From Candidatus Hermodarchaeum yapensis (lineage in GTDB: Archaea; Asgardarchaeota; Hermodarchaeia; Hermodarchaeales; Hermodarchaeaceae): DNA of 64,000 bases. Of this stretch, positions 21,538 to 55,569 are shown piece after piece. Positions within the stretch are counted from its first letter, which is position 1; every line of letters starts with the position of its first letter. The notes beneath the pieces are model-generated. The model saw only the letters and a program-made list of their open reading frames with translations. It did not search any database and had not been told where the DNA came from. The position numbers were made by a program, and so were the translations under genes. The DNA lies in the NCBI GenBank assembly GCA_016840405.1, contig JAEOSK010000008.1, forward strand, positions 28,119 to 92,118, written 5' to 3'.

Positions 21538-22341
21538 TTGTCATCTAGCAAATTCTCAGCCAGAAAAAAAATTTGGCTGCTCCAATCCCCAACCTTTGAA
21601 CAAGCCCTTCAGCTGCTAGATAAAGCAATTTCCCAAAAACGACTTATCCAGATGCTTGGAAGCTGCTATGTTGAATATCACGGACGGGCACGATCAGTAC
21701 TAACAGAGGGAGAACGGCTCATCATCATGAAACGGGATGGCGCCATTCTTGTTCACAAAGAAAGCGGCGTAGAACCTGTCAATTGGCAACCACCCGGCGC
21801 AACCCTAAAAGTTACACAAGAAAATGATAAACTCGTTCTTTCCGCTAATCGTGCGAAACCGCGTGAAACTGTCCGCATTGATTTTTCTGCCATTACCATG
21901 ATCAGTGCAAGCCTTATTGATGACACTGGCGAGCTTAGCATGTACTTAACAGAAGATGAAATGCAACGTGTTCTAAGTGCAAATCCTGACCTCATCGAGC
22001 TTGGTCTCCGAACCATACGGCGAGAACGTCATGTTGCTCCCGGGTTCATCGACATCTTTGCTCGCGACACCCAAGGACGGCTCGTTATTATCGAAGTCAA
22101 ACGACGCCGGGCTGATAATGAAGCAGCCCAACAACTCCATCGTTACATTAAGAGTCTGCAAGGTGATGAAACCGCTGATCTCCGAGGAATATTAGTTGCT
22201 CCCAGCCTTACAAAGGGCACTCATGCGCTCCTTCAACAGTTGGGCTTAGAATACCGGAAAATTGAACCCCAACAATGTGCTATTTATCTACAAGAATCGG
22301 ATTCGCGAAAACTTACTGATTATTTTCCCGAATCACAATAA
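21538..22341 (+). CDS. nucS: Endonuclease NucS/EndoMS
   Basis: PVNWQPPG, IDI...IIEVKR, QL.RY; C-terminal PIP-like RKLTDYF. Confidence 0.95.
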   Translation: MSSSKFSARKKIWLLQSPTFEQALQLLDKAISQKRLIQMLGSCYVEYHGRARSVLTEGERLIIMKRDGAILVHKESGVEPVNWQPPGATLKVTQENDKLVLSANRAKPRETVRIDFSAITMISASLIDDTGELSMYLTEDEMQRVLSANPDLIELGLRTIRRERHVAPGFIDIFARDTQGRLVIIEVKRRRADNEAAQQLHRYIKSLQGDETADLRGILVAPSLTKGTHALLQQLGLEYRKIEPQQCAIYLQESDSRKLTDYFPESQ

Positions 22342-22349
22342 TAAGACAA

Positions 22350-22865
22350 CTAGCCGATGCAAGACCAAGCTATTTGACGAAATCCTTCTGTAACGCCTTG
22401 GCCTTCTTTTGCGCTAGTCTCAAAATATCCCCAGCCCAGCTGTTGTGCATATCTCATTGCATCCTCTGATGAAACTTGACGTTGATCCACTAAATCGACC
22501 TTATTTGCTATCAACACTGATGGAATCGCACCAGTTACTTGAGCAACTTCGTCATACCATCCTGGAATATTATCAAAGGTATGACGTCTTGTCACATCAA
22601 AAACTAAGATAATCCCTGCGGCTCCTCGATAAAAGACAGGACGTACCGAACTAAAATGCGGTTGACCTGCTAAGTCCCAAAGTTGTAATCGGACTAATGT
22701 ATCACCAAAATTCAGTTCTTTCACCGCAAACGAAGTACCAACAGTCATGATGTATGATTCGCGGAAATGCCCCTCAGTGTAACGGATAATGAGACTAGTT
22801 TTGCCGACGGCACCATCGCCAACGACGCAGACTTTGAGAACATACTGGCGTTGCGGTGTACTCAT
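22350..22865 (-). CDS. Rab-like small GTPase (Asgard eukaryotic signature protein); likely start MSTPQ
   Basis: G1 GDGAVGKT, G2 TVG, G3 WDLAGQ, G4 NKVD, G5 ETSAK; RabF-like RLQLW, FYRGA, LVFDVT. Confidence 0.93.
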   Translation of the reverse strand: MSTPQRQYVLKVCVVGDGAVGKTSLIIRYTEGHFRESYIMTVGTSFAVKELNFGDTLVRLQLWDLAGQPHFSSVRPVFYRGAAGIILVFDVTRRHTFDNIPGWYDEVAQVTGAIPSVLIANKVDLVDQRQVSSEDAMRYAQQLGWGYFETSAKEGQGVTEGFRQIAWSCIG

Positions 22866-23014
22866 GTAGCCTTTCTCCTCGAGGGTTCGGTTTGTCTGAC
22901 TTACGTTTGTGGCAATATATTGGTTTCGTTCATCCATGGGTTTTCTTTCAGTTAATTAATTTCGCCCAATGATTTTTATGGACTTGAAGGATGTTAGGGG
23001 CAAGCTAGTCTAAC

Positions 23015-26005
23015 ATGGAGTGCGAATACGCAATGACGGTAACAGAGCTACCGAAGCAGTTCGATTTACCTTCTTTAGAAGAGGAAGTGCTACTCTTCTG
23101 GAAAAAGAATAAAGTGTATGAAAAGGTAACAGAACAGCTTTCGGGTCAACCAGTATTCAGGTTCTTAGATGGGCCCCCATACACTACCGGTGCAATCCAC
23201 CTGGGAACGGCGTGGAACAAAATTCTGAAAGACATGGTATTACGTTTTCGTCGGATGCAGGGGTTCCGCGTTTTGGACACACCTGGTTTTGATATGCACG
23301 GACTACCAATTGAAGTGCACGTAGAAAAAGCTCTGGGCATTAAATCGAAATTAGATATTGAAAGCAAGATTGGTGTTGATAAATTCATAAAACAATGCCA
23401 GGATTTCGCCCTTTCTAACTTAGACCAGATGACAGAACAGTTCAAACGCACAGGAGTGTGGATGAACTGGAATCGCCCATATCGCACGATTGATAATCCC
23501 TACATTGAAGGCACTTGGCACTTGATGAAACGAGCCTCTGAACGGGGATTGCTCTATCGCGGGTTACGATCAATAGATTGCTGCGTACGCTGTGAGACTG
23601 CAATTGCCAAACGAGAGCATGAATACAGAACAGTTGAGGATTATTCGATTTGGGTAAAGTTTCCAATAATCGGGAAAACTAACGAGTATGTTGTGATTTG
23701 GACTACAACGCCATGGACACTTCCTGCTAATATGGCAGTGATGGTCAATCCCGAATTTGAATACCTTCGCGTGAAGGTTGATAAGGAAGTGTGGATTCTA
23801 GCCAAAGGGCTAGCCAATATCATATTACAAGGGCTACTCAACAAACAATACGAAGTGGTTGAAGAGGTCAAAGGCACAAAGCTTCTGGGAATCCGTTATG
23901 AACATCCGTTGCTAGATGAGGTGCCCCGACAGGCAAAATTCCATGATGCTTCTGAGAAAGTTCATTCCGTCGTCTTAAGTGAGGAGCATGTGACCTTAGA
24001 GCAAGGAACAGGTCTGGTACATATGGCTCCTGGTCATGGTCCTCAGGACTTCGAGGTGGGTGAGCGTGAGGAAATTCCCATTTTTTGCCCAGTTACGCTT
24101 TCTGGCTCATTCTCGGAAGAGGGTGGAAAATATGCAGGAATGAAAGTTCAAGATGCAAATGAAGTTATTCTACAAGACTTACGCCGAAAGAAGCTCCTAG
24201 TTCATCAAGATACAATTGAACATGAATATGCTCACTGTTGGCGGTGTGGTAGTCCTCTTGTATACCTTGCTACTGATCAGTGGTTCCTTCGCGTTAGCGA
24301 AATTCGAGAAGAAATTATTAAAAAGAACGAAGATGTCTACTGGGTACCTGATTGGGCGGGTCATACTTGGTTCCGCAATTGGGTACAAAATCTTCGGGAT
24401 TGGTGTATTTCCAGGCAACGCTATTGGGGTGCTCCTCTACCAATCTGGAAATGTGAAAAATGTGAGGAAATTGAAGTCATAGGAAGCATAAACGAACTAA
24501 AAAAGAAATCAGGAAAAATCCCTGAGAACCTTCATCGACCCTGGATTGACGAACTCTCATGGCCCTGTTCGAAATGCAAAGACACAATGAAACGGGTCTC
24601 TGATGTGTTAGATGTCTGGCTAGATAGCGGCGTAGCTCCATGGGCAAGTCGCTGGGCAACTTATGGCACAACAGACTTTGATAATTGGGAAACAGCTGAC
24701 TTCGTAATGGAAGGCAAAGATCAGATTAGCAGCTGGTTCAACACCCTCTTTAACTCAACAATGCTTGCAGATAACCGAGAACCTTACAAAAGTGTCTATA
24801 TGCATGGATTTACAGCTGATGAGCAAGGTCGACCAATGTCAAAATCAAAAGGCATTGGTGTCTTTCCCGAAGAGGTGGTGGAGAAATTTGGTGCTGAGAC
24901 ACTACGAATGTATTGTATCAAAAGCACCGGGCCCGGTGAAGATATGCATTTTCTCTGGAAAGATGTCGAAGATACCCGCCGTTCACTTTCAATTCTCTGG
25001 AACGTCTACGTCTTTGCAACAACTTTCATGAAAGCCGCGGGATATGATCCACAGGCTCATAAATTAAAACCTCAATCCTTACAAAATGAAGATCGATGGA
25101 TTCTCTCCCAGTTGCATCTATTAATCAAACAAGTTGGCGAGCGTCTTGAAAAATACGAACTACCATTTATACCACGGTTGATGGAGTCCTTCATCGTCAA
25201 AGATTTGAGTCGTTGGTATATCAAGCTGATAAGACCACGAACTTGGGTGAGCTCTCAAGACGAAACAAAAACACAGGCATTTACAACGCTTTACTACGTC
25301 TTACGAACCCTCTTAGCGGTACTAGCTCCCGTTCTACCTTTTCAGACAGAAAAAATGTATAAAGCCCTCGTTCGTTCTGCTGAGCCTGATGCCCCATTAA
25401 GCGTTCACATGCTTCCATGGCCCAAGGTCAACGAAAAGCTAATTGATCCTGAGCGGAGCCAAGAAATGGAATGGGTTTCTGATATAGTAGAAGCAACTCA
25501 ATTCATTCGCCAAGAGGAAGGTTTGAAGCTGCGTTGGCCCTGTCAACGTTTAGTCATTGTACCTTCAAAGAAAGAGTTCCAACTTGAACATTTCAGCGAC
25601 GTTGTAGCAAGTCAGACCAATGTAAAAACAGTTGAAATCCAAAAGAAAGCTAAAGGTGATTTACTCAAAAACAAAGAATTACCTTTTGCTACGATATACC
25701 TCGACATCAGTGAAACTCCTGAAATTCGTGCTGAACGCCTTTCACGCGATCTTATTCGACAAATACAAGCAACCCGAAAGAAACAAGGACTTCATGTTAC
25801 GCAACGCATCAAACTGTATGTGGCGGCTAAATCATTGGAACTACGAAAAGCCGTAGAAATGACTCGAGATAGCATTGCTTCAAAAGTTGGTGCTATAACA
25901 CTCGAAGTAGAGGAGAAAATACCTACCGTAAAGGGGCTTGCGGTTGGAAAACTCACATTTGCCAATAAGGAAGTTCAATTCGGCTTTATCGTCCAAGAGA
26001 AATAG
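23015..26005 (+). CDS. ileS: Isoleucyl-tRNA synthetase (archaeal/eukaryote type)
   Basis: DGPPY, HLGT (HIGH), WTTTPWTLP, GTGLVH, DWCISRQRYWG, PMSKS. Confidence 0.97.
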   Translation: MECEYAMTVTELPKQFDLPSLEEEVLLFWKKNKVYEKVTEQLSGQPVFRFLDGPPYTTGAIHLGTAWNKILKDMVLRFRRMQGFRVLDTPGFDMHGLPIEVHVEKALGIKSKLDIESKIGVDKFIKQCQDFALSNLDQMTEQFKRTGVWMNWNRPYRTIDNPYIEGTWHLMKRASERGLLYRGLRSIDCCVRCETAIAKREHEYRTVEDYSIWVKFPIIGKTNEYVVIWTTTPWTLPANMAVMVNPEFEYLRVKVDKEVWILAKGLANIILQGLLNKQYEVVEEVKGTKLLGIRYEHPLLDEVPRQAKFHDASEKVHSVVLSEEHVTLEQGTGLVHMAPGHGPQDFEVGEREEIPIFCPVTLSGSFSEEGGKYAGMKVQDANEVILQDLRRKKLLVHQDTIEHEYAHCWRCGSPLVYLATDQWFLRVSEIREEIIKKNEDVYWVPDWAGHTWFRNWVQNLRDWCISRQRYWGAPLPIWKCEKCEEIEVIGSINELKKKSGKIPENLHRPWIDELSWPCSKCKDTMKRVSDVLDVWLDSGVAPWASRWATYGTTDFDNWETADFVMEGKDQISSWFNTLFNSTMLADNREPYKSVYMHGFTADEQGRPMSKSKGIGVFPEEVVEKFGAETLRMYCIKSTGPGEDMHFLWKDVEDTRRSLSILWNVYVFATTFMKAAGYDPQAHKLKPQSLQNEDRWILSQLHLLIKQVGERLEKYELPFIPRLMESFIVKDLSRWYIKLIRPRTWVSSQDETKTQAFTTLYYVLRTLLAVLAPVLPFQTEKMYKALVRSAEPDAPLSVHMLPWPKVNEKLIDPERSQEMEWVSDIVEATQFIRQEEGLKLRWPCQRLVIVPSKKEFQLEHFSDVVASQTNVKTVEIQKKAKGDLLKNKELPFATIYLDISETPEIRAERLSRDLIRQIQATRKKQGLHVTQRIKLYVAAKSLELRKAVEMTRDSIASKVGAITLEVEEKIPTVKGLAVGKLTFANKEVQFGFIVQEK

Positions 26006-26052
26006 ACGCCCCAACACATTTAAGCCGCAGTAAAACATCACAAAATTCACAA

Positions 26053-26198
26053 GGGCACGTGGCTTAGCCTGATGGAGCGCCGAACTTCTGCGTCCTTGGC
26101 GCAGAGTGTGTATGCCTTATATGGTGTCGCTCCGAACATTCGATTGCGAAGCCTAGGTAAGCCGGAGGTCGCGGGTTTGAATCCCGCCGTGCCCACCA
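26053..26198 (+). tRNA. tRNA-Ile(UAU) with introns at 29/30 (26083-26113) and 37/38 (26122-26159), encoded CCA
   Basis: Acceptor stem GGGCACG/CGTGCCC-A-CCA, D stem GCTT/GAGC, T stem GCGGG/CCCGC. Splicing gives CCGGC-CT-TAT-AA-GCCGG. Intron 2 forms a strict BHB (CUUA/UAGG, 3-nt bulges); intron 1 forms a relaxed HBh' (GCGC/GUGU). Confidence 0.88.
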
Positions 26199-26209
26199 CT
26201 CTTCTACGG

Positions 26210-27736
26210 CTATTTCGATTGCCTTTTGTCATCAAATTTCTTTGCGGCAGTTTCGAAATCTATCCCAAATCCCGTTTCTTTTGTTAATCGAGTTCGTACC
26301 TGCATAAATACTGGAAACCGCGTAGCCTGACCGACAACAAGAGCTTCGCCTACAGTTAGACTTGAGATTGAAGTAAGAGTTGCCTTAGTAATTTTTTCTG
26401 ACGTAGCTCGGATATGATCTAAATCATAAGGATTTGTGATTCGAAGGAAGATATTCGTACCGCATTGAGACAGAACAGTTGTTGACAGACGAACAGGGCG
26501 CTGCGAAATAATACAAAGTGACAAATTGTACTTACGCCCTTCACGTGCTACTGTTTCAAGAACTCCTTTAGAAAACGCAAGCGTGCGGCGTGCCTGAGGG
26601 CAGAATTGGTGGGCCTCTTCAAGAAACACAATGGTGGGAGGAATCGTTCCGTCTCTTCGCAGATCAAATAGATAGCGAAGAACTGCATCAACAATAATCT
26701 GTTTCTTTTGTAAACTCACCGTTTCACTCATATCAAGAATGACCGCTTGTCCGGGTTTCATCAGTTTTGACCAATCAGGTGTAGGTGTTTTTCCAAAAAG
26801 TCGAAGACTTTGAAGATTATCTAACCAACCTAGAAGGGCATCGCGGGTCCTCACATTAATTGAAGGGTCTTGTTCGAGAGCAGTGATTAAATCCCCGATA
26901 TCGTATGGCTGTCCTTTTCGCGTGCTTCGAAGGGTGCGGATTACCCGAGTAAGCTCTCGAACCTGAATGGTGCCCATATCTGGGGCATACGTTGCAAATG
27001 CTTTTGCACTCATTCGAGGTGTAGCAATTTCAACTAGTGGACTTTGGATGACAGTTATTTGGTCTTCGAAACTTTTTCCCTTGGCTCCACGCGATTCTGC
27101 TAGCCCCGTATATTCACCATGCACATCAATCACAAGTAACGCCGGACGACCTTGACTGGATTTTCGTGCAAGAAGCTCTTCCAACATTACAGATGCAGCG
27201 TAACTTTTTCCTGCCCCACTCATCGCAAGAAGCGCCACATGCTTTTGATACATTTTCGTCAAATTAAAGGTTGCAGGAATATTATGGAATAATAACTGTC
27301 CGAGATGAACCCCATCTTTAGTAAAACCCAGAAATTCACCTAGAACCTTTGTATCTGGGGCCTTTACCTGAGTGCCAGGTGAAGGAGGGTAGGTAATCCT
27401 TCGAACATGGCCGTTTTCGAATATACCAAGGGGCTTAGCCTCAGCTAGCACATATTCCCATCGATCTATAGGAAAAATGGCGTTGAAAGCTTTCCCTGAG
27501 CGTGTAAACTCATGCACCGCATCAATTTGCGAAAAATACCGATTTGTCTTGTAAACTTGTTCAACATGAGCAAACACTGTCCCTTCCTCGGTCTCCATAG
27601 AGACATATTGTCCAACATGAATTGGGACTTGTTTATCCGATGGGGTATCATTGCGTTTTCCAATGACAAAGGAAACATTTTCCGTTGATGGACCATTTTC
27701 TGTGCAAACGACGGTTCCAATAGTTTCTGCTTTCAT
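26210..27736 (-). CDS. herA: HerA helicase/translocase
   Basis: HAS barrel, HVALLAMSGAGKS, IDVHGEY, LEEAHQF, REGRK, ISQRP. Confidence 0.93.
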   Translation of the reverse strand: MKAETIGTVVCTENGPSTENVSFVIGKRNDTPSDKQVPIHVGQYVSMETEEGTVFAHVEQVYKTNRYFSQIDAVHEFTRSGKAFNAIFPIDRWEYVLAEAKPLGIFENGHVRRITYPPSPGTQVKAPDTKVLGEFLGFTKDGVHLGQLLFHNIPATFNLTKMYQKHVALLAMSGAGKSYAASVMLEELLARKSSQGRPALLVIDVHGEYTGLAESRGAKGKSFEDQITVIQSPLVEIATPRMSAKAFATYAPDMGTIQVRELTRVIRTLRSTRKGQPYDIGDLITALEQDPSINVRTRDALLGWLDNLQSLRLFGKTPTPDWSKLMKPGQAVILDMSETVSLQKKQIIVDAVLRYLFDLRRDGTIPPTIVFLEEAHQFCPQARRTLAFSKGVLETVAREGRKYNLSLCIISQRPVRLSTTVLSQCGTNIFLRITNPYDLDHIRATSEKITKATLTSISSLTVGEALVVGQATRFPVFMQVRTRLTKETGFGIDFETAAKKFDDKRQSK

Positions 27737-27765
27737 TCAAGTTTCATCCTACAATCAAATCATTT

Positions 27766-28944
27766 CTACTGAAATGGCATTCTTTCACGGCGTAATTTCA
27801 ATACACTCTCCGGATAACCAATCCGGCTCGTCAGTTGGTTCAAGAGGAATTCTAGATCACGCTCGATTAACCGAGCTTGTGAATCTGCATCAATTAATAC
27901 AGAAGGAAGGGCAAATTCCTCGTTATCAGAAGACATAGGAAGCAACATTGCCCCAATTTTTTCAATTATACTCTTTGGGTCATAAGATCCTGTAAATACC
28001 TCAACACGGAGCGGATAATCATATTCTGCCGTTCGTAAGTAAAAACAAACAAGCCCATTTTCTTGTTGGTTGGGCCCTTCACCTTCAAGTGTATTTTCGA
28101 TATTAGAATTATCTAGTCGCAGTATGGGTGATCGCTCACCTACATCGAGAATTCGGAAAAAGAAGTCTGAATCATAACTAAGCTGCAACACAGAGCGATA
28201 ATCCAAATGAAGCATTGGTTCCAACTCAGGATGTCGAGTAATCAGATGTGGAAGTATCTCACCGAGAATGTGAATAAACCGTTGACTTCTGCTGTCTTTC
28301 ACAACACCTGCTAGGAGCGTCCCTGTTTCCTCGCTCTTCGTGTACAGTTTTTCGAATAATTCGATAATTTCACCGTACTTTCTTGAGAATATGGATTGTT
28401 GTGATGGTCGATCATTAAGATGGGGCCTTAGCGAGCCATCCAATAACAACAACTCAGCAGGGTGATGATCTTGTACTCGGATAGCCAATTCCAATTCGCC
28501 TTTCAATCGTTCAAGTGATGCATTAAGCTCTGCTTCTCGTCGAGATATTGGAGTTAGTTCTGCTTTCACAGTTGGCAGCGTTGTTTTTTCAGGAAAATAA
28601 ATTGCAGAAACCCGATTAGAAGGTGTATATTCAAAAATGGTAGCATTAGCCCGAGTTATAACTAATTCCACACCGCGCAATGTATTTTTCAACAGTCCAC
28701 CATCAACACCACACACGCGGAGACCGCTTAATTCCGTAGGAGTAACTTGACGGGCTAAATGATTATCAACAATGTATCGCTGAGCAAGCGGTAAGTCCGT
28801 TAAGAGATCAATCTTGTGGCGTTCACTTCGAAGAATAGAAGCAAAGGAATTTCTTTTCTCTTCTAACATTTGGATTTGTTGGACAATTTTTTCTAATGCC
28901 TCATCCAACGCCCATAACTCGCGAATAGTCTTCATTCCTATCAT
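27766..28944 (-). CDS. nurA: NurA nuclease
   Basis: CGVDGG, ERL..E, LLDGSL, GVVKDS, P.VL..AD; upstream of herA. Confidence 0.9.
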   Translation of the reverse strand: MIGMKTIRELWALDEALEKIVQQIQMLEEKRNSFASILRSERHKIDLLTDLPLAQRYIVDNHLARQVTPTELSGLRVCGVDGGLLKNTLRGVELVITRANATIFEYTPSNRVSAIYFPEKTTLPTVKAELTPISRREAELNASLERLKGELELAIRVQDHHPAELLLLDGSLRPHLNDRPSQQSIFSRKYGEIIELFEKLYTKSEETGTLLAGVVKDSRSQRFIHILGEILPHLITRHPELEPMLHLDYRSVLQLSYDSDFFFRILDVGERSPILRLDNSNIENTLEGEGPNQQENGLVCFYLRTAEYDYPLRVEVFTGSYDPKSIIEKIGAMLLPMSSDNEEFALPSVLIDADSQARLIERDLEFLLNQLTSRIGYPESVLKLRRERMPFQ

Positions 28945-43630: not shown

Positions 43631-44836
43631 ATGGCTAAACCACCTACAACTCTGACCATCCCCATTGGTCCCCAACACCCTGCGCTCAAAGAGCCGGAAA
43701 ACTTCAGCATTACTCTTGATGGTGAAATCGTCGTCGACGTCGACGCCCGGATTGGTTACGTTCACCGTGGCATTGAAAAAGCCTTTGAGAGTCGAAGTTA
43801 TAGCCAAAACGTATACCTTGCTGAACGCATATGCGGCATCTGCTCCCAATCCCACACAACATGCTATGTACAAGCTGTTGAAGAGATTCTGGATTTGGAT
43901 GTGCCACCCCGTGGCTTATACATCAGAGGTATCATGAATGAACTAAACCGGATTCATAGCCACATCCTCTGGCTAGGTGTGGCAGGTCACGAGATTGGTT
44001 GGGATACGCTATTCCATTATTCATGGCGGGACCGCGAACTTTGCATGGATATTATCGAAGAAATTTGTGGGAATCGAGTCAACTACGCCAACAATGTCAT
44101 TGGAGGCGTCCGCCAAGACGTGGAAAAAAGCCAAGTTCCAAGTATGGTACAACGCTTAGAGAAAATCCGCGAACGAATGAATCACTACTTGACTTTGATT
44201 TTAAATGACCAAGCCATTCTTGACCGAGCACTCGGTGTCGGTATCCTCGAAACCGAAATCGGAAGAGCCTTATGTACCACTGGTCCCACCGCCCGAGCCT
44301 CCGACATCAAATGGGACGTCCGAGAAACTCAGCCTCGCACACCCTATAAAGAAAGTTTCAATAAGCACTGGGAGGTCCGCACCTCCGACCTCTGCGACGT
44401 AGCAGGTCGCGTTGTCGTACGCATTCTCGAAGTTGTCGACGCCTGCAACTGTTGCATCGACTGGCTCAAACACCTCCCCGCCGGCGACATCGCTGTCCGC
44501 GCTCCCCGCCGCGTCCCACCAGGCCACGCCCTCAGCACCTTCGAAGCCCCCCGCGGCGAAGTCCTCCACTACGTCGTCAGCAACGGCACCGACAAACCCG
44601 AACGCCACAAAGCCCGCGCCCCCACCCTCGGCAACATCCCCGGCGTCATCGAAATCCTCAAAGGCGGACGAATAGCCGACATCCCCATCGCCCTCGCATC
44701 GATAGACCCTTGCTTCTCATGCACTGATAGAATAATCTTAGTTGATGAGAAAGGTAATAATGAAGTAAAGCCCTGGTCTTGGTTCCAAAAAGTCAGTCGC
44801 GAGACGCGGGAGAAAGAGAAGAGTTGGCGACGTTAG
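43631..44836 (+). CDS. Group 4 (energy-converting) [NiFe]-hydrogenase large subunit
   Basis: GPQHP, HRGIEK, L1 ERICGICS, EAPRGE, L2 DPCFSCTDR. Confidence 0.95.
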   Translation: MAKPPTTLTIPIGPQHPALKEPENFSITLDGEIVVDVDARIGYVHRGIEKAFESRSYSQNVYLAERICGICSQSHTTCYVQAVEEILDLDVPPRGLYIRGIMNELNRIHSHILWLGVAGHEIGWDTLFHYSWRDRELCMDIIEEICGNRVNYANNVIGGVRQDVEKSQVPSMVQRLEKIRERMNHYLTLILNDQAILDRALGVGILETEIGRALCTTGPTARASDIKWDVRETQPRTPYKESFNKHWEVRTSDLCDVAGRVVVRILEVVDACNCCIDWLKHLPAGDIAVRAPRRVPPGHALSTFEAPRGEVLHYVVSNGTDKPERHKARAPTLGNIPGVIEILKGGRIADIPIALASIDPCFSCTDRIILVDEKGNNEVKPWSWFQKVSRETREKEKSWRR

Positions 44837-44928
44837 TCAACTAAGTAGTCAAATAAGTCCAAAAGTATCCAGTATTCTGTCTCTGATAGTGCATATTGTC
44901 ATTGCAATTACTATGACTCACTCTAATT

Positions 44929-47031
44929 CTATTGACTTAACCATTCTTGTACAGCAGCTTGTTTTTCTCCAGAAGAAGGTGGTGCGATATCAGCCCAGAA
45001 CCGAGTATCATTGTTTGAATCGATGTAGATTTCCCAGACAGCTGATACTCGTTCTGTTTCATATAAATGAATTTCTTTGAAAATATCCTGTATACTTATG
45101 CCAAGACTCTGAATTAGTTCTTGTTCGTCTTTGAGCAGTTGACAAGGATTACTATTGATAGTTTCGATCAATTCTTCCGCTAGTTTTTGATCTTGTTTTG
45201 TATTGGCTTCTGTTTTCAGTTGATCTAGACGTCCTTTTGTAAGTGTAATCTGTCTTCTGGGTTTATCGTCCCGAATAGTTTGGTATTGGCTTTCTCCATA
45301 TCGATAGATGAAATCCTTTTGTGTGTCTGTTATTTTTGGTTTGAAGCCGTATATTTCTGATTTAAGTCCTGCATCAAGAATCGTTGTGCGTTTAATTCCG
45401 AATTTCATTTGACCGTTTCTATTGACGAAGAAGCCGTCTTCGGGGATGACTTCAGCGATGTAGGCGCGTTTGACTTCGAGTGTTCCGTTGCGGATGGTTT
45501 TGGGTAGACGGAGGTTGGGATGAAGGTGTTTGTCACCTTGAGGTACACCCCAATTTTCGAGGAGGCGTCCGACGGGTGCAGAGACAGTTAGGCGGTAGCG
45601 TCCTCCTTGTAGTTGTTCGAGTTGGTAAGTGCAATCGCCGAGTTGGTGGAAGAGGTTTTGTCCGTAGACCATTCTGTCGAGGTCGTTTTTGTGGTAGGTG
45701 AGGATATGGGTATTTTTATTAATGTGGCAGTCGCTGATTGCAAGGGCTACGAGGCGGGCGCGGAGGTCGTTGAGTTGTTTGCCTTCAGGGAACCGTGGGT
45801 TTTGGATGCCGCCGCCTTTTTCAGGGTTGGCGATGCGTCCGATTTGGGTGATGTAGGGTTTGATGGTGGTGAAGGGTTGATGGGTGGTGTCGATGAGGAG
45901 GTGGAGGGTGTCGCCGTAGAGGTATTTGCTGTATTTGGTGGACCAGAGTTCGTAGGGAATGTTGCAGGTTTTTTCTAGATTTTCACGTGGGTGTTCGGTG
46001 AGTTGGTTGATGAGTTGTCCGAGTTGGGTTTTATTGACGTTGAGGCGGCGCTGGGCAGAGATGACGAGATTTTCTTTGACATCGGGTTTGAGATAGAGAA
46101 GTTCGCCTTTAAGGGCGTTGGGCCAGTAATCAGGGTCCTTGGTTTTTCGCCACAGGTAGAGGGTGTTATTTTCGACTGCGAGGCGGAGTTCTTCTTGGGT
46201 TGCTTCGAGGTTGAGCCGTTGATTTAGGAGATCTGTGATCTGGTTTTGGTGGTCTGTGATGGTATGAGCTATAGTGCAGAGTTCTTGGGGTCCCATTCGG
46301 TGGTAGGGTTTAAGTTCGGCGATGGTAAGGCGTTGGGTTGAGCCGTGGTGGTAAAGGGTTTCGATGGCGGATGCGAGGTTTTCTGTGGTTTGGTGGTTGG
46401 GGTGGTCGAGGAGGGATTTGAGGGTGTTGTAGACGAAGGAGGGGTCGAGGATGTGGTTTTTGGCTTCGTGGGGGAGTTGGGTTTCCCAGTGTTGGCGGGT
46501 GGCTTCATGGATGTTTAGGGTGCGTTCGAGGTGGGGGGTCTTTTCGCCGAGGGTCCAGTCGCGGATGCATCCCCAGGGGATGTTGGTGATATCCTCGAGG
46601 TCTTTGTAGGTGTAGTTGGTGAGAGTGTTGTCGTCTCGGGCTGCATTGAGGGTGCGGTGCCAGAGGGCATAAGTGTAGGCTTGGTTGAAGGTGTTGCGGG
46701 CTTGGAGGTAGGGGTGGCGGCGGAGGTCGTGTTCGAGGGATTCCCAGGCGGGTTTGCCGTAGGTGTCGAGGAGGTCGGCGGCTTCAGGGGTGTGGGCGAG
46801 GTCGTTGCGGAGGGTGTCCCAGTCTTTGATCGGTGTTCCACTGTCGTATTCTGATTCGTTGGGTTTGGATTTGTTAATGATGGAGCAGGGTGATGTTTTG
46901 TCAGTGTCCTGATTGGGATCTTCCCTGTGTGGTTTGTGGTCGGTGAGCATAAGTGGTTCAATGGGTATATTCTCAGTGGGGGCTTTATGCTCCTCAATTG
47001 TGGGGGGATATTCGTTGGGTGGAGGTTCCAA
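44929..47031 (-). CDS. Large HTH + double LAGLIDADG-like protein (likely TTG start at 47031)
   Basis: LVALAISDCHI and YIAEVIPEDGFF motifs about 100 aa apart, with a WGVPQGDK...LP linker; HTH YKDLEDITNIPWGCIRDW. Confidence 0.65.
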   Translation of the reverse strand: MEPPPNEYPPTIEEHKAPTENIPIEPLMLTDHKPHREDPNQDTDKTSPCSIINKSKPNESEYDSGTPIKDWDTLRNDLAHTPEAADLLDTYGKPAWESLEHDLRRHPYLQARNTFNQAYTYALWHRTLNAARDDNTLTNYTYKDLEDITNIPWGCIRDWTLGEKTPHLERTLNIHEATRQHWETQLPHEAKNHILDPSFVYNTLKSLLDHPNHQTTENLASAIETLYHHGSTQRLTIAELKPYHRMGPQELCTIAHTITDHQNQITDLLNQRLNLEATQEELRLAVENNTLYLWRKTKDPDYWPNALKGELLYLKPDVKENLVISAQRRLNVNKTQLGQLINQLTEHPRENLEKTCNIPYELWSTKYSKYLYGDTLHLLIDTTHQPFTTIKPYITQIGRIANPEKGGGIQNPRFPEGKQLNDLRARLVALAISDCHINKNTHILTYHKNDLDRMVYGQNLFHQLGDCTYQLEQLQGGRYRLTVSAPVGRLLENWGVPQGDKHLHPNLRLPKTIRNGTLEVKRAYIAEVIPEDGFFVNRNGQMKFGIKRTTILDAGLKSEIYGFKPKITDTQKDFIYRYGESQYQTIRDDKPRRQITLTKGRLDQLKTEANTKQDQKLAEELIETINSNPCQLLKDEQELIQSLGISIQDIFKEIHLYETERVSAVWEIYIDSNNDTRFWADIAPPSSGEKQAAVQEWLSQ

Positions 47032-47033
47032 TT

Positions 47034-47540
47034 TCAAGATTTGAAATTCCACCAATAGAGCTGAAGTAAGAGCCCTATAATGATGAGGATGATTCCAAAT
47101 CCAATGATAATGGTAGTTGTATGAATGTAAATTAGGATCCCACCAGGATCTGAGAAGGGAGACAAGGTGAGTGTGATGAAGCCATAGCCTGCAGAGAGGA
47201 TACCCATGAGTATGAGGGTGATAGGGATCAAAGGTTTCCAACGTGTTTCAGCTGTCATTTCATACCAGATGCTCCCTAGGATGCTGAGGCTGATGATTGT
47301 GTTGATAACAGTTTGAATCTGAATGAAGGTGCTGGAGCCTCCGCGATAGGTGAGGAGGGAGAGGATAAAGAAAAGTGCGTAGCTGCTGAACCAGTATCCT
47401 ATGATGCGTATTCCAAGTCGTAGAAGAGAACCCTTCTTTGTCCTTAAACTCCGGATTACTTCTATAACGATTATGAAGACCACTGAGAGCAGGATGAAAA
47501 TCAAAGGATATAATGGCCCCAGGAGCAGTATCGAATTCAT
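47034..47540 (-). CDS. Hypothetical multi-TM membrane protein
   Basis: About five hydrophobic helices. Confidence 0.65.
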   Translation of the reverse strand: MNSILLLGPLYPLIFILLSVVFIIVIEVIRSLRTKKGSLLRLGIRIIGYWFSSYALFFILSLLTYRGGSSTFIQIQTVINTIISLSILGSIWYEMTAETRWKPLIPITLILMGILSAGYGFITLTLSPFSDPGGILIYIHTTTIIIGFGIILIIIGLLLQLYWWNFKS

Positions 47541-47594
47541 ATTTTTTCCCTATTATTTTCTGATCCATATTTGTACAGTGTCTTATTTCTCCTA

Positions 47595-48071
47595 TTAGCG
47601 ACCGGGTATCATGACTTCTGCGGGAATTGAAACGTCAGGTGCATTCCACATTCGAAGGCGGAAGCCGATGATGAATTGGACGAGTATGGAGATGAGGGTC
47701 AGCAGGAATATTAAGTAGATTGAACCGAATGCCAGGGTGAAGGGCAGGCTGATTATTGCGAGAACGATGAGAATGGTTCCGCTTTTTTTCGTCCGGTGGG
47801 TGAGGTTTTGTTGGTTGATTTTGGTTTTCACTGTTTTGATTTGGTAGTTAAATTGCCGGTAGCCCAAGCCTATGAGGATCCATCCTATTGGGAAGATAAT
47901 TAAGAAGAGATTGAAATATCCGATGAATATGATGTGTAAGTTCCATCCCAACACCGTTTGCATAAAGTATAGCATAGGCAAGACAAACAGCATCATAGCT
48001 CCAGCGGAAATCAGGTGGCCAGCCCGGATCATGGGGTTGGGTGGATTTGCTGAATTATCTTTGATATTCAC
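47595..48071 (-). CDS. Hypothetical four-TM membrane protein
   Basis: Hydrophobic helices. Confidence 0.65.
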   Translation of the reverse strand: MNIKDNSANPPNPMIRAGHLISAGAMMLFVLPMLYFMQTVLGWNLHIIFIGYFNLFLIIFPIGWILIGLGYRQFNYQIKTVKTKINQQNLTHRTKKSGTILIVLAIISLPFTLAFGSIYLIFLLTLISILVQFIIGFRLRMWNAPDVSIPAEVMIPGR

Positions 48072-48268
48072 CTCACACTCCCTCGATTAAAGCTAATCGT
48101 TGGCGTTCTAAATATCTTGTGAAAATGGCGAAAAATCTGCCGACAGGATGCAAGTTGATCAGCATTTGAAAATCAAAAGAGCCTAAGTCCCAATTAGATT
48201 ATATATCAAATAGTCCTTTCATCTACTGACGGGGGGCGTAAGGAGTCTTGGATGGTGCAAAGGATTAG

Positions 48269-48655
48269 GTGTTCATTGCTGTTGTTCTTGTGATTTTAGG
48301 GTATATCTTGCCAATGCTCTATATCACACTGTTTCCAGTAGTTACAATTCATTGGATAGATTCACTTCTCTTCACTTTTTTAAAAACGCCAAGCATTGGA
48401 TCTGTCAGCTTTGTTTGGTTGCTGCTACCCCTACCTCTCATTTTGGCCATTATTGGCTGGGCTGGCTTCTCCTATCGACCTCGCCTTGCGTTTCTCAGAA
48501 TCGGCTTTTATCCCACGAGCCTTCTCGCTATTCTCCTTCTCATATTCTTAGTCTATATTGCAACATTTCGTATAATCATAATTCCCATTAACGGAATCGC
48601 TTTCACCTGTGCAGCTCTGGCAGCACATCAAGCCAGAAAAAGACTCCCAAAATGA
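48269..48655 (+). CDS. Hypothetical four-TM membrane protein
   Basis: Hydrophobic helices, basic C-terminus. Confidence 0.6.
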   Translation: MFIAVVLVILGYILPMLYITLFPVVTIHWIDSLLFTFLKTPSIGSVSFVWLLLPLPLILAIIGWAGFSYRPRLAFLRIGFYPTSLLAILLLIFLVYIATFRIIIIPINGIAFTCAALAAHQARKRLPK

Positions 48656-48844
48656 AAAGCCGTTTTTCTCTTCGCCAAGGAAGCGCTTCGCAATCAACTT
48701 GCTTTAGCCCGTGACGCGGAAGGTACCGATGAAGCCAGATGTGCCTAAACCCAATAGTAGGAGCAAATTACTAAGTAGTTAGAGTTAGTGCTAGTAATTG
48801 CGATAAGCAATTAGTGGTTTGTCACACTTAATTAGTCGGTTGAA

Positions 48845-49246
48845 ATGAAGAAAGCTGGAGAAGTAAAGGACGAAGAATGGAAGAGGAAACTGTCAGAAGA
48901 AGAGTATCGTGTGTTGCGCGAGAAGGGAACCGAACGTCCCTTCACGGGAAAATATTGGAAACATAAAGAGAAGGGTAACTACAAGTGTGCTGGGTGTGGT
49001 GTGGACCTTTTTTCTTCTGATACGAAATTTGATTCGGGTTGCGGTTGGCCGAGTTTTTATGCTGCTCTGGATAAGGACAAAATTGAGGAGAAACTGGATC
49101 TTTCGCATGGGATGCGGCGAATAGAAGTCCTTTGTAAGAATTGTGGGGGACATCTTGGGCATGTGTTTGATGATGGACCTCGAGATAAGACGGGGTTACG
49201 CTACTGTATTAATTCCGTCTCACTAAATTTTGTAAAAGGCCTGTGA
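48845..49246 (+). CDS. msrB: Peptide-methionine (R)-S-oxide reductase
   Basis: [32 protein letters not shown]. Confidence 0.97.
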
Positions 49247-49294
49247 TGTATTGTATACATAATACTAATTTGAAATTCCGCCAATGTACTCTGT

Positions 49295-50650
49295 ATGTCG
49301 AAAAAGTACATGTATGGTTTTATCAACACCCAGGGTAAAATTGCAATTGGAGCGCGATTTGACGATGCTAAGGATTTTCATAATGGACTAGCGGCTGTTA
49401 AGCTTGGCGAGAAGTGGGGGTATATTGATAAAACCGGACAATTTGTTACTGAAAAAGTATTTGATTGGGTCCCTGAGAAACTAGATGAAGATCTTAATTG
49501 CGTGCAGATAGGAACGAAATGGGGGTATGTCAACAAAACGGGAAATGTAGTTATCCAACCCCAATTTGATAAAGCATTTCCATTCAGTGAAGGATTAGCA
49601 GCAGTATATTTTGATGACGGATGGGGATATATCAACACTACTGGGAAATTCCATATTTGGGGCTTTAATGCGCCGAAATTTCCTGCTGGAACAGGAATGG
49701 AATTCAATAGGTTTCGAGTGAAGGGGTTGGGTAAGTTTTCTGAAGAATGGGCGACCATTGAAGCATGGATGCAAGTAGTTCAAGAGGACAAAATCTTGTA
49801 TTCAGGTCAATTTATGGGGTACATCGACAAGAGGGGTGATTACGTTTTCCCTCCATTGTACAAAGAAGCTTTACCCATTCACAAGGATTTGATTGTAGTA
49901 AAAACAGCTAGAGAAGATCAAAAGGAGAGGTTTTGCATTTTTAATAGAAATGTTCTATCCAAGGGTTCAAGTGAAATGCCATATCGAATTCCACCGATTT
50001 TTGAAAAGGTCTATAGGCCTGTGGAAGATTTTTTCAAAGTTACTGTTACCAAACAAGAATTAGAGATTGACATTGATCTTGAAAACAATGTGAGAGTTAA
50101 TCTTGAAAACAATGCGTTCCATAGAAGCATTAACTCATCAGATATTTGCTTTTCAATATATCTATCCGCAATAGGTCGATTTAGAAATCCAACGAAATTC
50201 CCCTATGTTCGTGTTAATAGAGGACATGAACCACTCTACAACTTTATTGATGATTCGGGGAAACTAGTGTCACATTTATGGTTCGAAAGCGCATTTGAAT
50301 TCTCAGAAGGTTTAGCTGTTGTAAAAGCTAATGGTAAATGGGGAGCTATAGATAAAACGGGAGATTTTGTTATCAAACCACAACACGAATTTCTATCTAG
50401 TTTTCATCAGAATCGAGCAGCCTTTCTAAAAGATGGCAAAATGGGTTTTATTGATAAATCTGGTGCTGTTGTTATCCTCCCAACATATCTGAAGGTCGAC
50501 AATTTCAGTGATGGACTTGCATCGGTTGCATTGGGAAATGGATTTTTTGGTTATATTGATCTCAATGGGGAGATGGTTATAAAACCCGAAGTTTGGCTCG
50601 GATACTTTGCCTTTCACGATGGCATGGCAAAATATTGTAGGTTAGAATGA
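49295..50650 (+). CDS. WG-repeat (KWG) protein
   Basis: Repeated F.EGLA.V...KWGYIDK.G units. Confidence 0.92.
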   Translation: MSKKYMYGFINTQGKIAIGARFDDAKDFHNGLAAVKLGEKWGYIDKTGQFVTEKVFDWVPEKLDEDLNCVQIGTKWGYVNKTGNVVIQPQFDKAFPFSEGLAAVYFDDGWGYINTTGKFHIWGFNAPKFPAGTGMEFNRFRVKGLGKFSEEWATIEAWMQVVQEDKILYSGQFMGYIDKRGDYVFPPLYKEALPIHKDLIVVKTAREDQKERFCIFNRNVLSKGSSEMPYRIPPIFEKVYRPVEDFFKVTVTKQELEIDIDLENNVRVNLENNAFHRSINSSDICFSIYLSAIGRFRNPTKFPYVRVNRGHEPLYNFIDDSGKLVSHLWFESAFEFSEGLAVVKANGKWGAIDKTGDFVIKPQHEFLSSFHQNRAAFLKDGKMGFIDKSGAVVILPTYLKVDNFSDGLASVALGNGFFGYIDLNGEMVIKPEVWLGYFAFHDGMAKYCRLE

Positions 50651-50743
50651 AAAATCAATTTATCCAGATGTCATTGTCATTCACATGCTCTTATACTCCT
50701 GTATTTGCTTCAGTGCGTTATTTCATCTCGAATCGATTTGATT

Positions 50744-50959
50744 TCAGAGAAAATTTCTTACTATTTGTAGGCAAATCCGATGAAGTCGTCCGCTAGCCAG
50801 AAGTAGGGTTGTTTGCCGAGGGCTTTTTGACCCGCACTGTTTGCAGACAAGTTTGCCTTTCGGAAAGAGGGAGCGTTCAATCTTGGTATTCACGTAATCT
50901 TTTTGAAGTAGGATTCTTCGTGTTCTTCTACAACGATGACAAGGACTTCCATTTGCCAA
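50744..50959 (-). CDS. Possible small Zn-finger protein or remnant
   Basis: GGAGG then TTG; CHRC and CKQC. Confidence 0.35.
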   Translation of the reverse strand: MANGSPCHRCRRTRRILLQKDYVNTKIERSLFPKGKLVCKQCGSKSPRQTTLLLASGRLHRICLQIVRNFL

Positions 50960-51130
50960 TATGCTCCTCCTCGAGTATTTTTTTAAACACACAGACAAAA
51001 ATATTCGTTAATAAAATTTGAAAGATGACAATGTGATATATGTGGTTAGAAGTGGGGTATGATTTCTGAAAATTTTGTGGGAGTAGAAGGCTTTTTTAGC
51101 AGAAGTGAATCATAATGGTGACCCACTGGA

Positions 51131-52258: not shown

Positions 52259-52276
52259 GGAGTGTGAAAAGAAAAT

Positions 52277-52672
52277 ATGCCACGACCTGGAGCAATGGAA
52301 GGCGAAATCCTCGGCACCGTTCTCAGACGGAAAACTGCGACCATCCGCTACCCATTCCAAGAGGCTGTCCGTCCCGAACGCCTCCGCGGCAAAATCGAAC
52401 ACGACATCGAAAAATGCACGGGCTGCGGACTATGCAGCCGCGACTGTCCCGCCACTGCCATCACTATGGTTGAGTCAACCAAGACAAAAACCAAAAAGAA
52501 ACCAGAGTTTCGCTTTGATCGTTGTATATTTTGTGGAACGTGTGAAGCTGTCTGCCCAAAGAAGGCAATTACCATGTCCACCGCGTTCGAGATGGCGGCT
52601 TTCACGCTGGAGGATGAGCATTTGGTTGTGGTGTCGGAGGATCCAGAGCCCTCAGAGAAAGCCGAAGATTAG
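52277..52672 (+). CDS. NuoI-like 2x[4Fe-4S] hydrogenase subunit
   Basis: T..YP, RG, CTGCGLCSRDCP, CIFCGTCEAVCP. Confidence 0.93.
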   Translation: MPRPGAMEGEILGTVLRRKTATIRYPFQEAVRPERLRGKIEHDIEKCTGCGLCSRDCPATAITMVESTKTKTKKKPEFRFDRCIFCGTCEAVCPKKAITMSTAFEMAAFTLEDEHLVVVSEDPEPSEKAED

Positions 52673-52761
52673 CCTTTAACAAGTTCTTTGAATTGCTGGA
52701 TTATTTTATTATCTAGTTGGTTTTGGGTGTAACAGCTTTGGTGGTTTTTGCACTTTCTCGA

Positions 52762-53628: not shown

Positions 53629-53769
53629 CTTACGGCTTCACGCTCTGAGAATCAAAGTGATTTAGGTGCACCTTAATTTGTTACACCTTTAATTTACCGC
53701 ATCCGCCAACGTGGCGTAAGGCTGAAAAAGAACAACCGTTCGTATTGAATACCGACCAGTGATCATGAA

Positions 53770-55547: not shown

Positions 55548-55569
55548 GTTTCTGATTGTTATGGAGAGG

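What the first reader, a model, noticed from the sequence alone, without database searches (positions are those of the whole stretch)
26053..26198. Eukaryote-like intron-containing tRNA-Ile(UAU) with two introns, directly after ileS
Seen: removing a 31-nt intron at 29/30 and a 38-nt intron at 37/38 (strict BHB, CUUA/UAGG) gives a complete cloverleaf with anticodon UAU and discriminator A73, 47 nt downstream of ileS. Known: most archaea read AUA with agmatidine-modified tRNA-Ile(CAU) made by TiaS. UAU anticodons are rare in archaea, whereas yeast tRNA-Ile(UAU) carries an intron needed for pseudouridylation at positions 34/36. Inference: this lineage may have the eukaryotic solution to AUA decoding. 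Splicing may be ordered, because the outer helix of the 37/38 BHB needs the anticodon stem restored by removing intron 1. Standard scanners could miscall this gene.
Basis: partly seen in the sequence, partly recalled or inferred. Interest (0 to 1): 0.75.

Follow-up and report, generated by a model that had tools for sequence, protein, structure and literature searches.

The report
Two-intron Asgard tRNA-Ile(UAU) behind ileS
This is a real isoleucine tRNA gene with a UAU anticodon, hidden by two introns, in an Asgard archaeon that lacks TiaS, the usual archaeal enzyme for reading AUA; a few other archaea are known to do this, but here the anticodon intron also carries a deeply conserved, unexplained element.

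Summary
Observation confirmed. Window 26053-26198 (+) is a tRNA gene split 30 + 8 + 39 nt by introns of 31 nt (29/30) and 38 nt (37/38). Splicing gives a clean cloverleaf with anticodon UAU, A73 and encoded CCA, 47 nt after ileS. Rfam sees a tRNA, default ARAGORN sees nothing, and ARAGORN with introns miscalls it Met(CAU).

- **Junctions:** a sister-genus gene has no 29/30 intron and reads straight through that junction. The intron-1 hairpin covaries.
- **Host:** a Hermod-type Asgard MAG, 86% complete.
- **TiaS:** not found here or in 18 family relatives.
- **tRNA set:** the assembly holds all 46 expected anticodon species if UAU replaces Ile2(CAU), with only two CAU genes.
- **AUA use:** 11.6 per 1000 codons.

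UAU without TiaS is already published for Nanoarchaeum, Korarchaeum and ARMAN. I found no paper reporting it for Asgard. This scan has noted it in at least 43 other Asgard genomes.

New here: the ileS–tRNA-Ile(UAU) cassette recurs in five TiaS-less Asgard families. Their 37/38 intron shares an indel-free 17-nt 5' part. Its nt 7-12 pair with tRNA positions 26-21, with two compensatory changes, and an invariant ACA follows 2 nt later. The function of this element is unknown. Pseudouridylation and ordered splicing remain untested.

The parts
23015..26005 (+). ileS (isoleucine--tRNA ligase, 996 aa), immediately upstream of the tRNA
   Evidence: NCBIfam TIGR00392, 906 bits. The ileS-tRNA linkage is kept in both genera of the family and in families f2, f12, f15 and f20.
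26014..26025 (+). Conserved promoter-like motif ACACATTTAAGC. The TATA-like TTTAAG lies about 30 nt before the tRNA 5' end (inferred).
   Evidence: Read directly. The same motif stands at the same distance in L006 and L012. No promoter test was run.
26053..26082 (+). Exon 1: tRNA positions 1-29 (acceptor 5' strand, D arm, G26, C27-G29)
   Evidence: Invariant in genus g1. Acceptor pair 5:68 changes from A-U to C-G in genus g2.
26083..26113 (+). Intron 1, 31 nt, non-canonical position 29/30, relaxed BHB
   Evidence: Central helix 26077-26080 with 26108-26111 is paired in 100% of cells. The inner helix has double changes at 7 of 8 pairs. The intron is absent from G114 (L045), whose sequence reads straight through the junction.
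26114..26121 (+). Exon 2, 8 nt: G30 C31 C32 U33 U34 A35 U36 A37. Anticodon UAU at 26118-26120.
   Evidence: Invariant in all relatives.
26122..26159 (+). Intron 2, 38 nt, canonical position 37/38. The BHB is strict once intron 1 is removed.
   Evidence: Central helix 26116-26119 with 26154-26157, bulges 26120-26122 and 26158-26160, inner helix 26123-26130 with 26146-26153.
26128..26133 (+). Intron-2 nt 7-12 (CGCTCC), complementary to tRNA positions 26-21 at 26074-26079 (GGAGCG)
   Evidence: 98% of cells paired across five families. Compensatory changes at 23:i10 (family f15) and 21:i12 (family f2). Slid controls pair in 40-70% of cells. None of the other 10 canonical introns of the genome shows this.
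26136..26138 (+). Invariant ACA at intron-2 nt 15-17, 2 nt after the complementary segment
   Evidence: Invariant in 26 sequences from five families, with no indel in intron nt 1-17.
26160..26198 (+). Exon 3: positions 38-76 (anticodon-stem 3' strand, variable loop, T arm with U56, acceptor 3' strand, A73, encoded CCA)
   Evidence: Invariant in g1.
26210..27736 (-). Convergent HerA-like ATPase gene; bounds the tRNA on its 3' side
   Evidence: NCBIfam HerA models give partial hits. Its stop lies 12 nt after the tRNA's CCA.

Best explanation
The locus is a functional gene for tRNA-Ile(UAU). It has its own promoter-like motif just after ileS. The precursor carries two BHB introns, which the archaeal splicing endonuclease removes; the genome has two EndA paralogs. 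The mature 76-nt tRNA is charged by IleRS and reads the AUA codon. In this lineage it replaces the usual archaeal pair of tRNA-Ile2(CAU) and the agmatidine synthase TiaS.

Shown: gene structure, splice junctions, conservation, the absence of TiaS from the assembly and from family relatives, a complete tRNA set, and use of AUA.

Inferred: expression, splicing, charging by IleRS, and whatever modification of U34 stops the tRNA reading AUG.
For: - tRNA model hit of 40 bits.
- A unique UAU solution from an independent BHB resolver.
- A natural allele without intron 1 (G114) fixes junction 29/30.
- Covariation in the intron-1 hairpin and in acceptor pair 5:68.
- Gene present in 17 of 19 family genomes with identical exons.
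- ileS linkage in five families.
- TiaS_FLD was not found in G000 or in 0/18 relatives, while four archaeal controls ring. tblastn with four Asgard TiaS proteins gives a best E of 0.18.
- G000 holds all 46 anticodon species with UAU in the Ile2 slot, and only two CAU genes: the initiator at C3:52046-52123 and an elongator type at C36:7588-7768.
- ATA makes up 11.6 per 1000 codons.
- Two EndA genes are present.
- The UAU-plus-intron-element probe hits 27 genomes, all in TiaS-less families, and 0 of 172 TiaS-positive genomes.
Against: - The assembly is only 86% complete, so TiaS or a third CAU tRNA could lie in unassembled DNA. One tRNA-like 3' half at a contig end (C53:5111-5312) could not be resolved.
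- The elongator-type CAU gene is called Met by exclusion, not by a test.
- BHB 1 has a weak outer helix and uses D-stem bases.
- RNAfold does not predict either BHB as the minimum-energy structure.
- There are no expression, splicing or modification data.
Confidence: 0.9

Rival explanations
1. ARAGORN's reading with introns allowed: a tRNA-Met(CAU) with one 49-nt intron, the anticodon assembled across the splice junction, and a 97-nt mature RNA.
For: ARAGORN -i reports it.
Against: - The anticodon stem has an A·A mismatch and the roughly 25-nt 'variable arm' has no stem.
- There is no BHB at those junctions.
- The BHB resolver finds no CAU solution under strict or relaxed rules.
- Relatives without intron 1 read ...CCGGCCTTATA... 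contiguously.
Confidence: 0.01
2. The UAU tRNA is an extra or minor decoder. The normal TiaS plus tRNA-Ile2(CAU) pair exists in the unassembled 14% of the genome.
For: Completeness is 86%. One tRNA-like fragment is unresolved.
Against: - TiaS is 0/18 in the family and 0/110 across nine families, against 172/190 in the other families.
- A complete 46-species tRNA set has already been found, with only two CAU genes.
- G001, a one-contig genome 98% complete from family f2, also lacks TiaS and has the same cassette.
Confidence: 0.04
3. The conserved intron segment (nt 7-12 pairing with positions 21-26) is a folding switch or chaperone. It holds the D-stem 3' strand until splicing and so sets the processing order, or keeps the precursor out of aminoacylation. 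It has no role in modification.
For: - The pairing has two compensatory changes.
- It cannot coexist with the D stem or with the inner helix of BHB 2, by geometry argued from the sequence.
- It is specific to this tRNA.
Against: It does not explain the invariant ACA 2 nt downstream, or the fixed 6-nt spacing from the splice site.
Confidence: 0.35
4. The gene is a decaying pseudogene or a chance tRNA-like sequence.
For: None beyond the default scanner's failure.
Against: Exons are 100% identical across a genus whose IleRS is 78-96% identical. There are compensatory changes, a conserved promoter-like motif and an encoded CCA.
Confidence: 0.01

Closest known systems
tRNA-Ile3(UAU) of Nanoarchaeum equitans, Ca. 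Korarchaeum cryptofilum and ARMAN-2/-4/-5, all archaea without TiaS and tRNA-Ile2(CAU) (PMC8450103, PMC6000648, PMC3919564, PMC3239211)
   Same: UAU anticodon in place of agmatidine-modified CAU, and no TiaS. The Korarchaeum and ARMAN genes also carry a 37/38 intron. The ARMAN-2 precursor was cleaved in vitro at a strict BHB.
   Different: - The host is an Asgard (Hermod-type) lineage.
- There is a second intron at 29/30.
- The gene is fixed directly behind ileS in five Asgard families.
- The anticodon intron carries a conserved D-arm-complementary segment plus ACA. I found none of these three features in the papers I read.
Eukaryotic cytosolic tRNA-Ile(UAU), with pseudouridine at 34 and 36 made by Pus1 (PMC5699540). 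That this step needs the intron is from my own knowledge (Szweykowska-Kulinska et al. 1994).
   Same: UAU anticodon, an intron at 37/38 whose sequence is under constraint, and a host related to the eukaryotic ancestor.
   Different: - The intron is an archaeal BHB intron.
- No TruA/Pus1-family gene was found in the assembly.
- Pseudouridines are untested.
- TiaS is present in 172 of 301 sampled Asgard genomes, so the trait is not phylum-wide.
Multi-intron tRNA genes of Thermoproteales and other Crenarchaeota, with non-canonical BHB introns cut by heterotetrameric EndA (own knowledge: Marck & Grosjean 2003; Sugahara et al. 2008)
   Same: Several introns per gene, non-canonical positions, relaxed BHB motifs, and two EndA paralogs in the genome.
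   Different: A different phylum. Here 33 of 46 genes carry introns, including nine with a T-loop intron.
Intron-borne modification guides: the C/D-box guide in the archaeal pre-tRNA-Trp intron; H/ACA guides and guide-independent Cbf5 on tRNA (PMC2584109; the rest from own knowledge)
   Same: A conserved intron element that pairs with the tRNA's own exon, and an ACA just 3' of a helix.
   Different: - No C/D boxes, no K-turn, no upper stem or two-sided pocket.
- The intron is only 29-50 nt long.
- No Rfam guide family matches.
It is not a member of either guide family.

Membership tests
tRNA (Rfam RF00005) | Cloverleaf with a score above the gathering threshold | tested here: met
   40 bits against 29, model positions 1-71. 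The spliced sequence folds as a cloverleaf.
Archaeal BHB tRNA intron | Two 3-nt bulges separated by a 4-bp helix, with cleavage after the second bulge base at both sites | tested here: met
   Both introns fit. Intron 2 has CUUA/UAGG and intron 1 has GCGC/GUGU.
Archaeal BHB tRNA intron | Flanking outer and inner helices (strict hBHBh') | tested here: inconclusive
   Intron 2 is strict only after intron 1 is removed. The outer helix of intron 1 is weak, so that motif is relaxed (hand pairing).
Archaeal BHB tRNA intron | Cleaved by the host splicing endonuclease | not testable with these tools
   Two EndA catalytic-domain genes are present. No assay was possible.
tRNA-Ile3(UAU) of TiaS-less archaea | Anticodon UAU in an Ile-type body (A73, A37, A38) | tested here: met
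   The nearest paralog by BLAST is tRNA-Ile(GAU).
tRNA-Ile3(UAU) of TiaS-less archaea | No TiaS in the genome | tested here: met
   PF08489 was not found in G000 or in 18 relatives, with positive controls ringing. tblastn was negative. Caveat: 86% completeness.
tRNA-Ile3(UAU) of TiaS-less archaea | No tRNA-Ile2(CAU) | tested here: met
   Only two CAU genes stand in a complete 46-species set. The second is called Met by exclusion.
tRNA-Ile3(UAU) of TiaS-less archaea | Charged with isoleucine and reads AUA | not testable with these tools
   Indirect only: the ileS linkage, and ATA at 11.6 per 1000 codons.
Eukaryote-type tRNA-Ile(pseudoU-A-pseudoU) | Pus1 (TruA-family) enzyme | tested here: not met
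   PF01416 was not found in G000, while it rings in 13 of 14 controls. The genome is incomplete.
Eukaryote-type tRNA-Ile(pseudoU-A-pseudoU) | Pseudouridine at positions 34 and 36, formed on the intron-containing precursor | not testable with these tools
   Needs CMC or bisulfite mapping, or mass spectrometry.
H/ACA guide RNA | Hairpin with a two-sided pocket, an upper stem with K-turn or K-loop, and ACA 3' of the lower stem | tested here: not met
   Only a 6-bp helix followed by NN-ACA is present. There is no upper stem, K-turn or Rfam hit.

The most novel reading that the evidence does not exclude
The conserved 5' part of the anticodon intron is a built-in handle for an intron-dependent modification of the anticodon. 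Intron nt 7-12 pair with tRNA positions 26-21, and an invariant ACA follows 2 nt later.

If that helix stacks on the anticodon stem (5 bp) and the BHB central helix (4 bp), it forms a stack of about 15 bp. ACA sits at one end and the unpaired U36-A37 at the other. That matches the 14-16 spacing between the ACA box and the target U in H/ACA RNPs (spacing from my own knowledge). It also resembles the acceptor/T minihelix plus ACCA that the PUA domain of Cbf5 binds.

An enzyme such as Cbf5-Nop10 could then make pseudouridine at 36 (or 34) on the precursor without a separate guide. That would give TiaS-less Asgard archaea a functional analogue of the eukaryotic pseudoU-A-pseudoU anticodon.
Probability: 0.15. 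Interest if true: 0.85.

Novelty: new member of a known kind. Interest (0 to 1): 0.58.

Why it matters
AUA and AUG differ only at the wobble base. Bacteria solve this with lysidine, archaea with agmatidine, and eukaryotes with inosine and pseudoU-A-pseudoU.

Nine of 30 sampled Asgard families showed no TiaS. At least five of them carry one ileS-linked, intron-bearing tRNA-Ile(UAU) cassette. That places a UAU-based, intron-associated way of reading AUA inside the archaeal group closest to eukaryotes. It makes the origin of the eukaryotic system directly testable.

The conserved intron element gives a concrete target for mutagenesis. Practically, these genes are missed or miscalled by common tRNA finders. 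Asgard MAG annotations will therefore wrongly show AUA as having no decoder, or show an extra tRNA-Met.

Tried and rejected
- **ARAGORN:** the default run found nothing in the window. Its Met(CAU) call with introns allowed was rejected.
- **The genome search with RF00005 on G000:** listed 24 tRNAs and missed this one. I therefore built my own finder.
- **Loose scans for CAU/UAU anticodon arms:** swamped by false hits.
- **BLAST of the whole gene across the phylum:** outside the family it found only 3' halves of other tRNAs (Thr, Ala, Arg, Pro), so it gave no information.
- **Two gapped patterns for UAU plus T arm:** hits at background level in families f2, f9, f12 and f15. One candidate in G001 proved to be tRNA-Thr with CTTATA inside an intron.
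- **Families f9 (0/68 TiaS) and f23 (0/7):** neither the 13-mer nor the intron-element probe hit them. How they read AUA was not established here.
- **Intron 2 as a mimic of the 5' splice site of intron 1 (CCG|AAC):** dropped, because genus g2 and the other families lack that junction yet keep the element.
- **Small hairpin inside the intron-2 loop:** no covariation. RNAalifold gave no consensus structure across families.
- **C/D or H/ACA guide:** no Rfam match and no boxes.
- **RNAfold:** predicts neither BHB as the minimum-energy structure, so it cannot settle the splicing order.
- **Contig-end fragment C53:5111-5312:** only a T arm and acceptor 3' strand are recognisable.

Full report
**Observation.** The stretch 26053-26198 on the + strand begins 47 nt after the stop codon of a 996-aa ileS gene (TIGR00392, 906 bits). 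Rfam's tRNA model matches 26053-26195 at 40 bits (gathering 29). Both acceptor strands, the D arm and the T arm align, and 80 nt stand in place of 11 model positions. Read by hand, exon 1 (26053-26082) ends at G29. A 31-nt intron follows (26083-26113). Next comes an 8-nt exon (26114-26121: G30 C31 C32 U33 U34 A35 U36 A37), then a 38-nt intron (26122-26159), then exon 3 (26160-26198) with A38, the rest of the tRNA, A73 and an encoded CCA. The junctions cannot slide, because the bases on either side of each differ.

Default ARAGORN finds no tRNA in the whole window. With introns allowed it calls a 97-nt tRNA-Met(CAU) with a mismatched anticodon stem and an unstructured extra arm.

**Are the introns real?** I wrote a resolver that removes up to three bulge-helix-bulge introns and then demands a cloverleaf. 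For this gene it returns one solution only, UAU with introns of 31 and 38 nt. This holds under strict and relaxed rules.

Intron 2 has the central helix CUUA/UAGG, two 3-nt bulges and an inner helix of 3 + 4 bp. Its outer helix is 2 bp while intron 1 is present and 5 bp afterwards. Intron 1 has the central helix GCGC/GUGU and a good inner hairpin. Its outer helix is weak, and the central helix uses G24-C27, so the D stem must open. It is a relaxed motif.

Relatives give the decisive evidence. IleRS-anchored loci and a phylum-wide BLAST recover the same gene behind ileS in 17 of 19 genomes of the family. Exons are identical within the genus. The intron-1 inner helix shows double changes at 7 of 8 pairs, and both central helices stay paired. 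In the sister genus, acceptor pair 5:68 changes from A-U to C-G. One genome there (G114, L045) has no intron at 29/30 and reads GCGCCGGCCTTATA straight through. It carries a D-loop intron and a T-loop intron instead. That natural allele fixes the 29/30 junction.

**Organism and context.** Named relatives are Hermodarchaeota/Promethearchaeota MAGs. The assembly is 2.7 Mb in 77 contigs and 86% complete.

- The TiaS ferredoxin-like domain (PF08489) is not found in it or in 18 family relatives, while it rings in the four archaeal control genomes.
- Four full-length Asgard TiaS proteins give no tblastn hit better than E = 0.18.
- With my finder plus hand parsing, the assembly yields all 46 anticodon species expected of an archaeon, provided UAU fills the slot of Ile2(CAU).
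- There are only two CAU genes: the initiator (C3:52046-52123) and a three-intron elongator type (C36:7588-7768). I call the second Met by exclusion.
- Thirty-three of the 46 genes carry introns, nine of them in the T loop, and nearly all encode CCA.
- Two EndA catalytic-domain genes are present. From my own knowledge, that fits the broad-specificity heteromeric enzyme type.
- ATA makes up 11.6 per 1000 codons in long open frames, or 15.5% of Ile codons, so a decoder is needed.

**Comparison with what is known.** Papers report tRNA-Ile(UAU) together with loss of TiaS and tRNA-Ile2 in Nanoarchaeum equitans, Korarchaeum cryptofilum (with an intron) and the three ARMAN lineages. The ARMAN-2 precursor, which has a 37/38 intron, was cleaved in vitro (PMC8450103, PMC6000648, PMC3919564, PMC3239211).

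Full-text searches combining Asgard with TiaS, agmatidine or UAU found no report of this in Asgard archaea. Earlier notes of this scan describe the same thing in at least 43 other Asgard genomes. I used them as leads only. The gene is therefore a new member of a known kind.

The 'eukaryote-like' label is only partly earned. 37/38 is the normal archaeal intron site. No TruA/Pus1-family gene was detected. TiaS is present in 172 of 301 sampled Asgard genomes.

**Distribution.** TiaS is bimodal by family. It is 0/110 in nine families (f1, f2, f9, f12, f15, f20, f23, f28, f30) and 172/190 in the rest.

- The exact 13-mer spanning positions 25-37 occurs in 10 genomes, all from TiaS-less families.
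- All but one stray coding hit among them lie in a multi-intron tRNA-Ile(UAU) directly behind ileS. This includes the one-contig, 98%-complete genome G001.
- A probe joining CTTATA to the conserved intron motif hits once each in 27 genomes. All are in f1, f2, f12, f15 or f20, and none is among the 172 TiaS-positive genomes. The reversed control pattern gives 10 scattered hits.
- Families f9 and f23 match neither probe. How they read AUA is open.

**The conserved intron element.** Intron 1 drifts freely, but the first 17 nt of intron 2 align without a single indel across five families. Their IleRS C-terminal halves are only 39-48% identical to the window's. G2, C7, G8, A15, C16 and A17 are invariant, and positions 9-12 are pyrimidines.

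Intron nt 7-12 (26128-26133) are complementary to tRNA positions 26-21 (26074-26079), that is G26, the 3' strand of the D stem, and nt 21. Pairing holds in 98% of cells, against 40-70% when the partner is slid. There are compensatory changes at 23:i10 (A-U to G-C in f15) and 21:i12 (G-C to A-U in f2), and G-C/G-U alternation at two more pairs. These are two independent events, so the covariation evidence is modest. None of the other ten canonical introns of this genome reaches 6 of 6.

Nt 26|27 are contiguous, and so are intron nt 6|7. The helix therefore cannot coexist with the D stem or with the inner helix of BHB 2. It is either an alternative conformer or part of a pseudoknot. In the pseudoknot, intron nt 1-6 run back along the anticodon stem. 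That version gives a stack of about 15 bp (6 + 5 + 4), with NN-ACA at one end and the unpaired U36-A37 at the other.

This recalls the ACA-to-target spacing of H/ACA RNPs and the minihelix plus ACCA bound by the Cbf5 PUA domain (own knowledge; guide-independent Cbf5 activity is cited in PMC2584109). A Cbf5-type gene is present. However, the element lacks the pocket, upper stem and K-turn of a guide RNA, and no Rfam guide family matches it. It is not a member of that family. I rate an intron-dependent anticodon modification at about 15% and a folding or ordering switch at about 35%. Otherwise the function is open.

**Splicing order.** In RNAfold ensembles the upper anticodon-stem pairs have p = 0.01 in the full precursor and 0.86 once intron 1 is removed. 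The intron-2 inner helix rises from 0.35 to 0.85. But the program predicts neither BHB register, and relatives without intron 1 need no order. The idea remains untested.

**Verdict.** The gene is the AUA decoder of a TiaS-less Asgard lineage. The strategy is known from other archaea, the lineage is new, and the gene carries a conserved, unexplained intron element worth an experiment.

Noticed in passing
window 26072 and 26178: The tertiary elbow pair G19-C56 is replaced by A19-U56 (D loop ...CUGAUGG..., T loop UUUGAAU). This is the only tRNA of the genome with U56. The pair is kept in both genera of the family but not in families f2, f12 or f15.
   Followed up: partly
G000 whole genome: Thirty-three of 46 tRNA genes carry one to three introns, nine of them a T-loop (about 59/60) intron, and nearly all genes encode CCA. 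ARAGORN miscalls several: Phe(GAA) as His, Asn(GUU) as Cys, and Glu(UUC) as Ala.
   Followed up: partly
G000:C53:5111-5312 and G000:C36:2717-3144: Two tRNA-like 3' halves (T arm + acceptor 3' strand + CCA) have no matching 5' acceptor strand within 400 nt. One sits at a contig end. The other is identical to the 3' half of tRNA-Leu(UAA). They may be split or fragmentary tRNA genes.
   Followed up: partly
G000:C14:43413-43667 and G000:C36:10730-10990: Two separate genes carry the tRNA splicing-endonuclease catalytic domain (open frames of 188 and 202 aa). This suggests a heteromeric, broad-specificity enzyme.
   Followed up: no
G000:C30:49534-49875: The only TruB/Cbf5-type pseudouridine synthase domain lies in an 836-aa open frame, far longer than a normal Cbf5. 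It may be a fusion, an intein or a read-through of neighbouring genes. No TruA-family domain was found in the assembly.
   Followed up: no
L098 (G001:C1, about 153900-154050) and L107-L109: The Odin-type (family f2) tRNA-Ile(UAU) has the T loop UCCGAAU, with C at position 55 where nearly all tRNAs have the U that becomes pseudouridine 55.
   Followed up: no
window 26210-28944 (-): A HerA-like ATPase gene (508 aa) is followed by a 392-aa gene with no NCBIfam hit. Earlier scan notes call the second NurA. No mre11 or rad50 lies nearby. NucS (21538-22341) and a small GTPase (22350-22937) lie upstream of ileS.
   Followed up: no
window 44001-56000: GC skew jumps to +0.22 and stays positive, and G+C rises to 0.47-0.49. 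The region has a different composition from the rest of the window.
   Followed up: no
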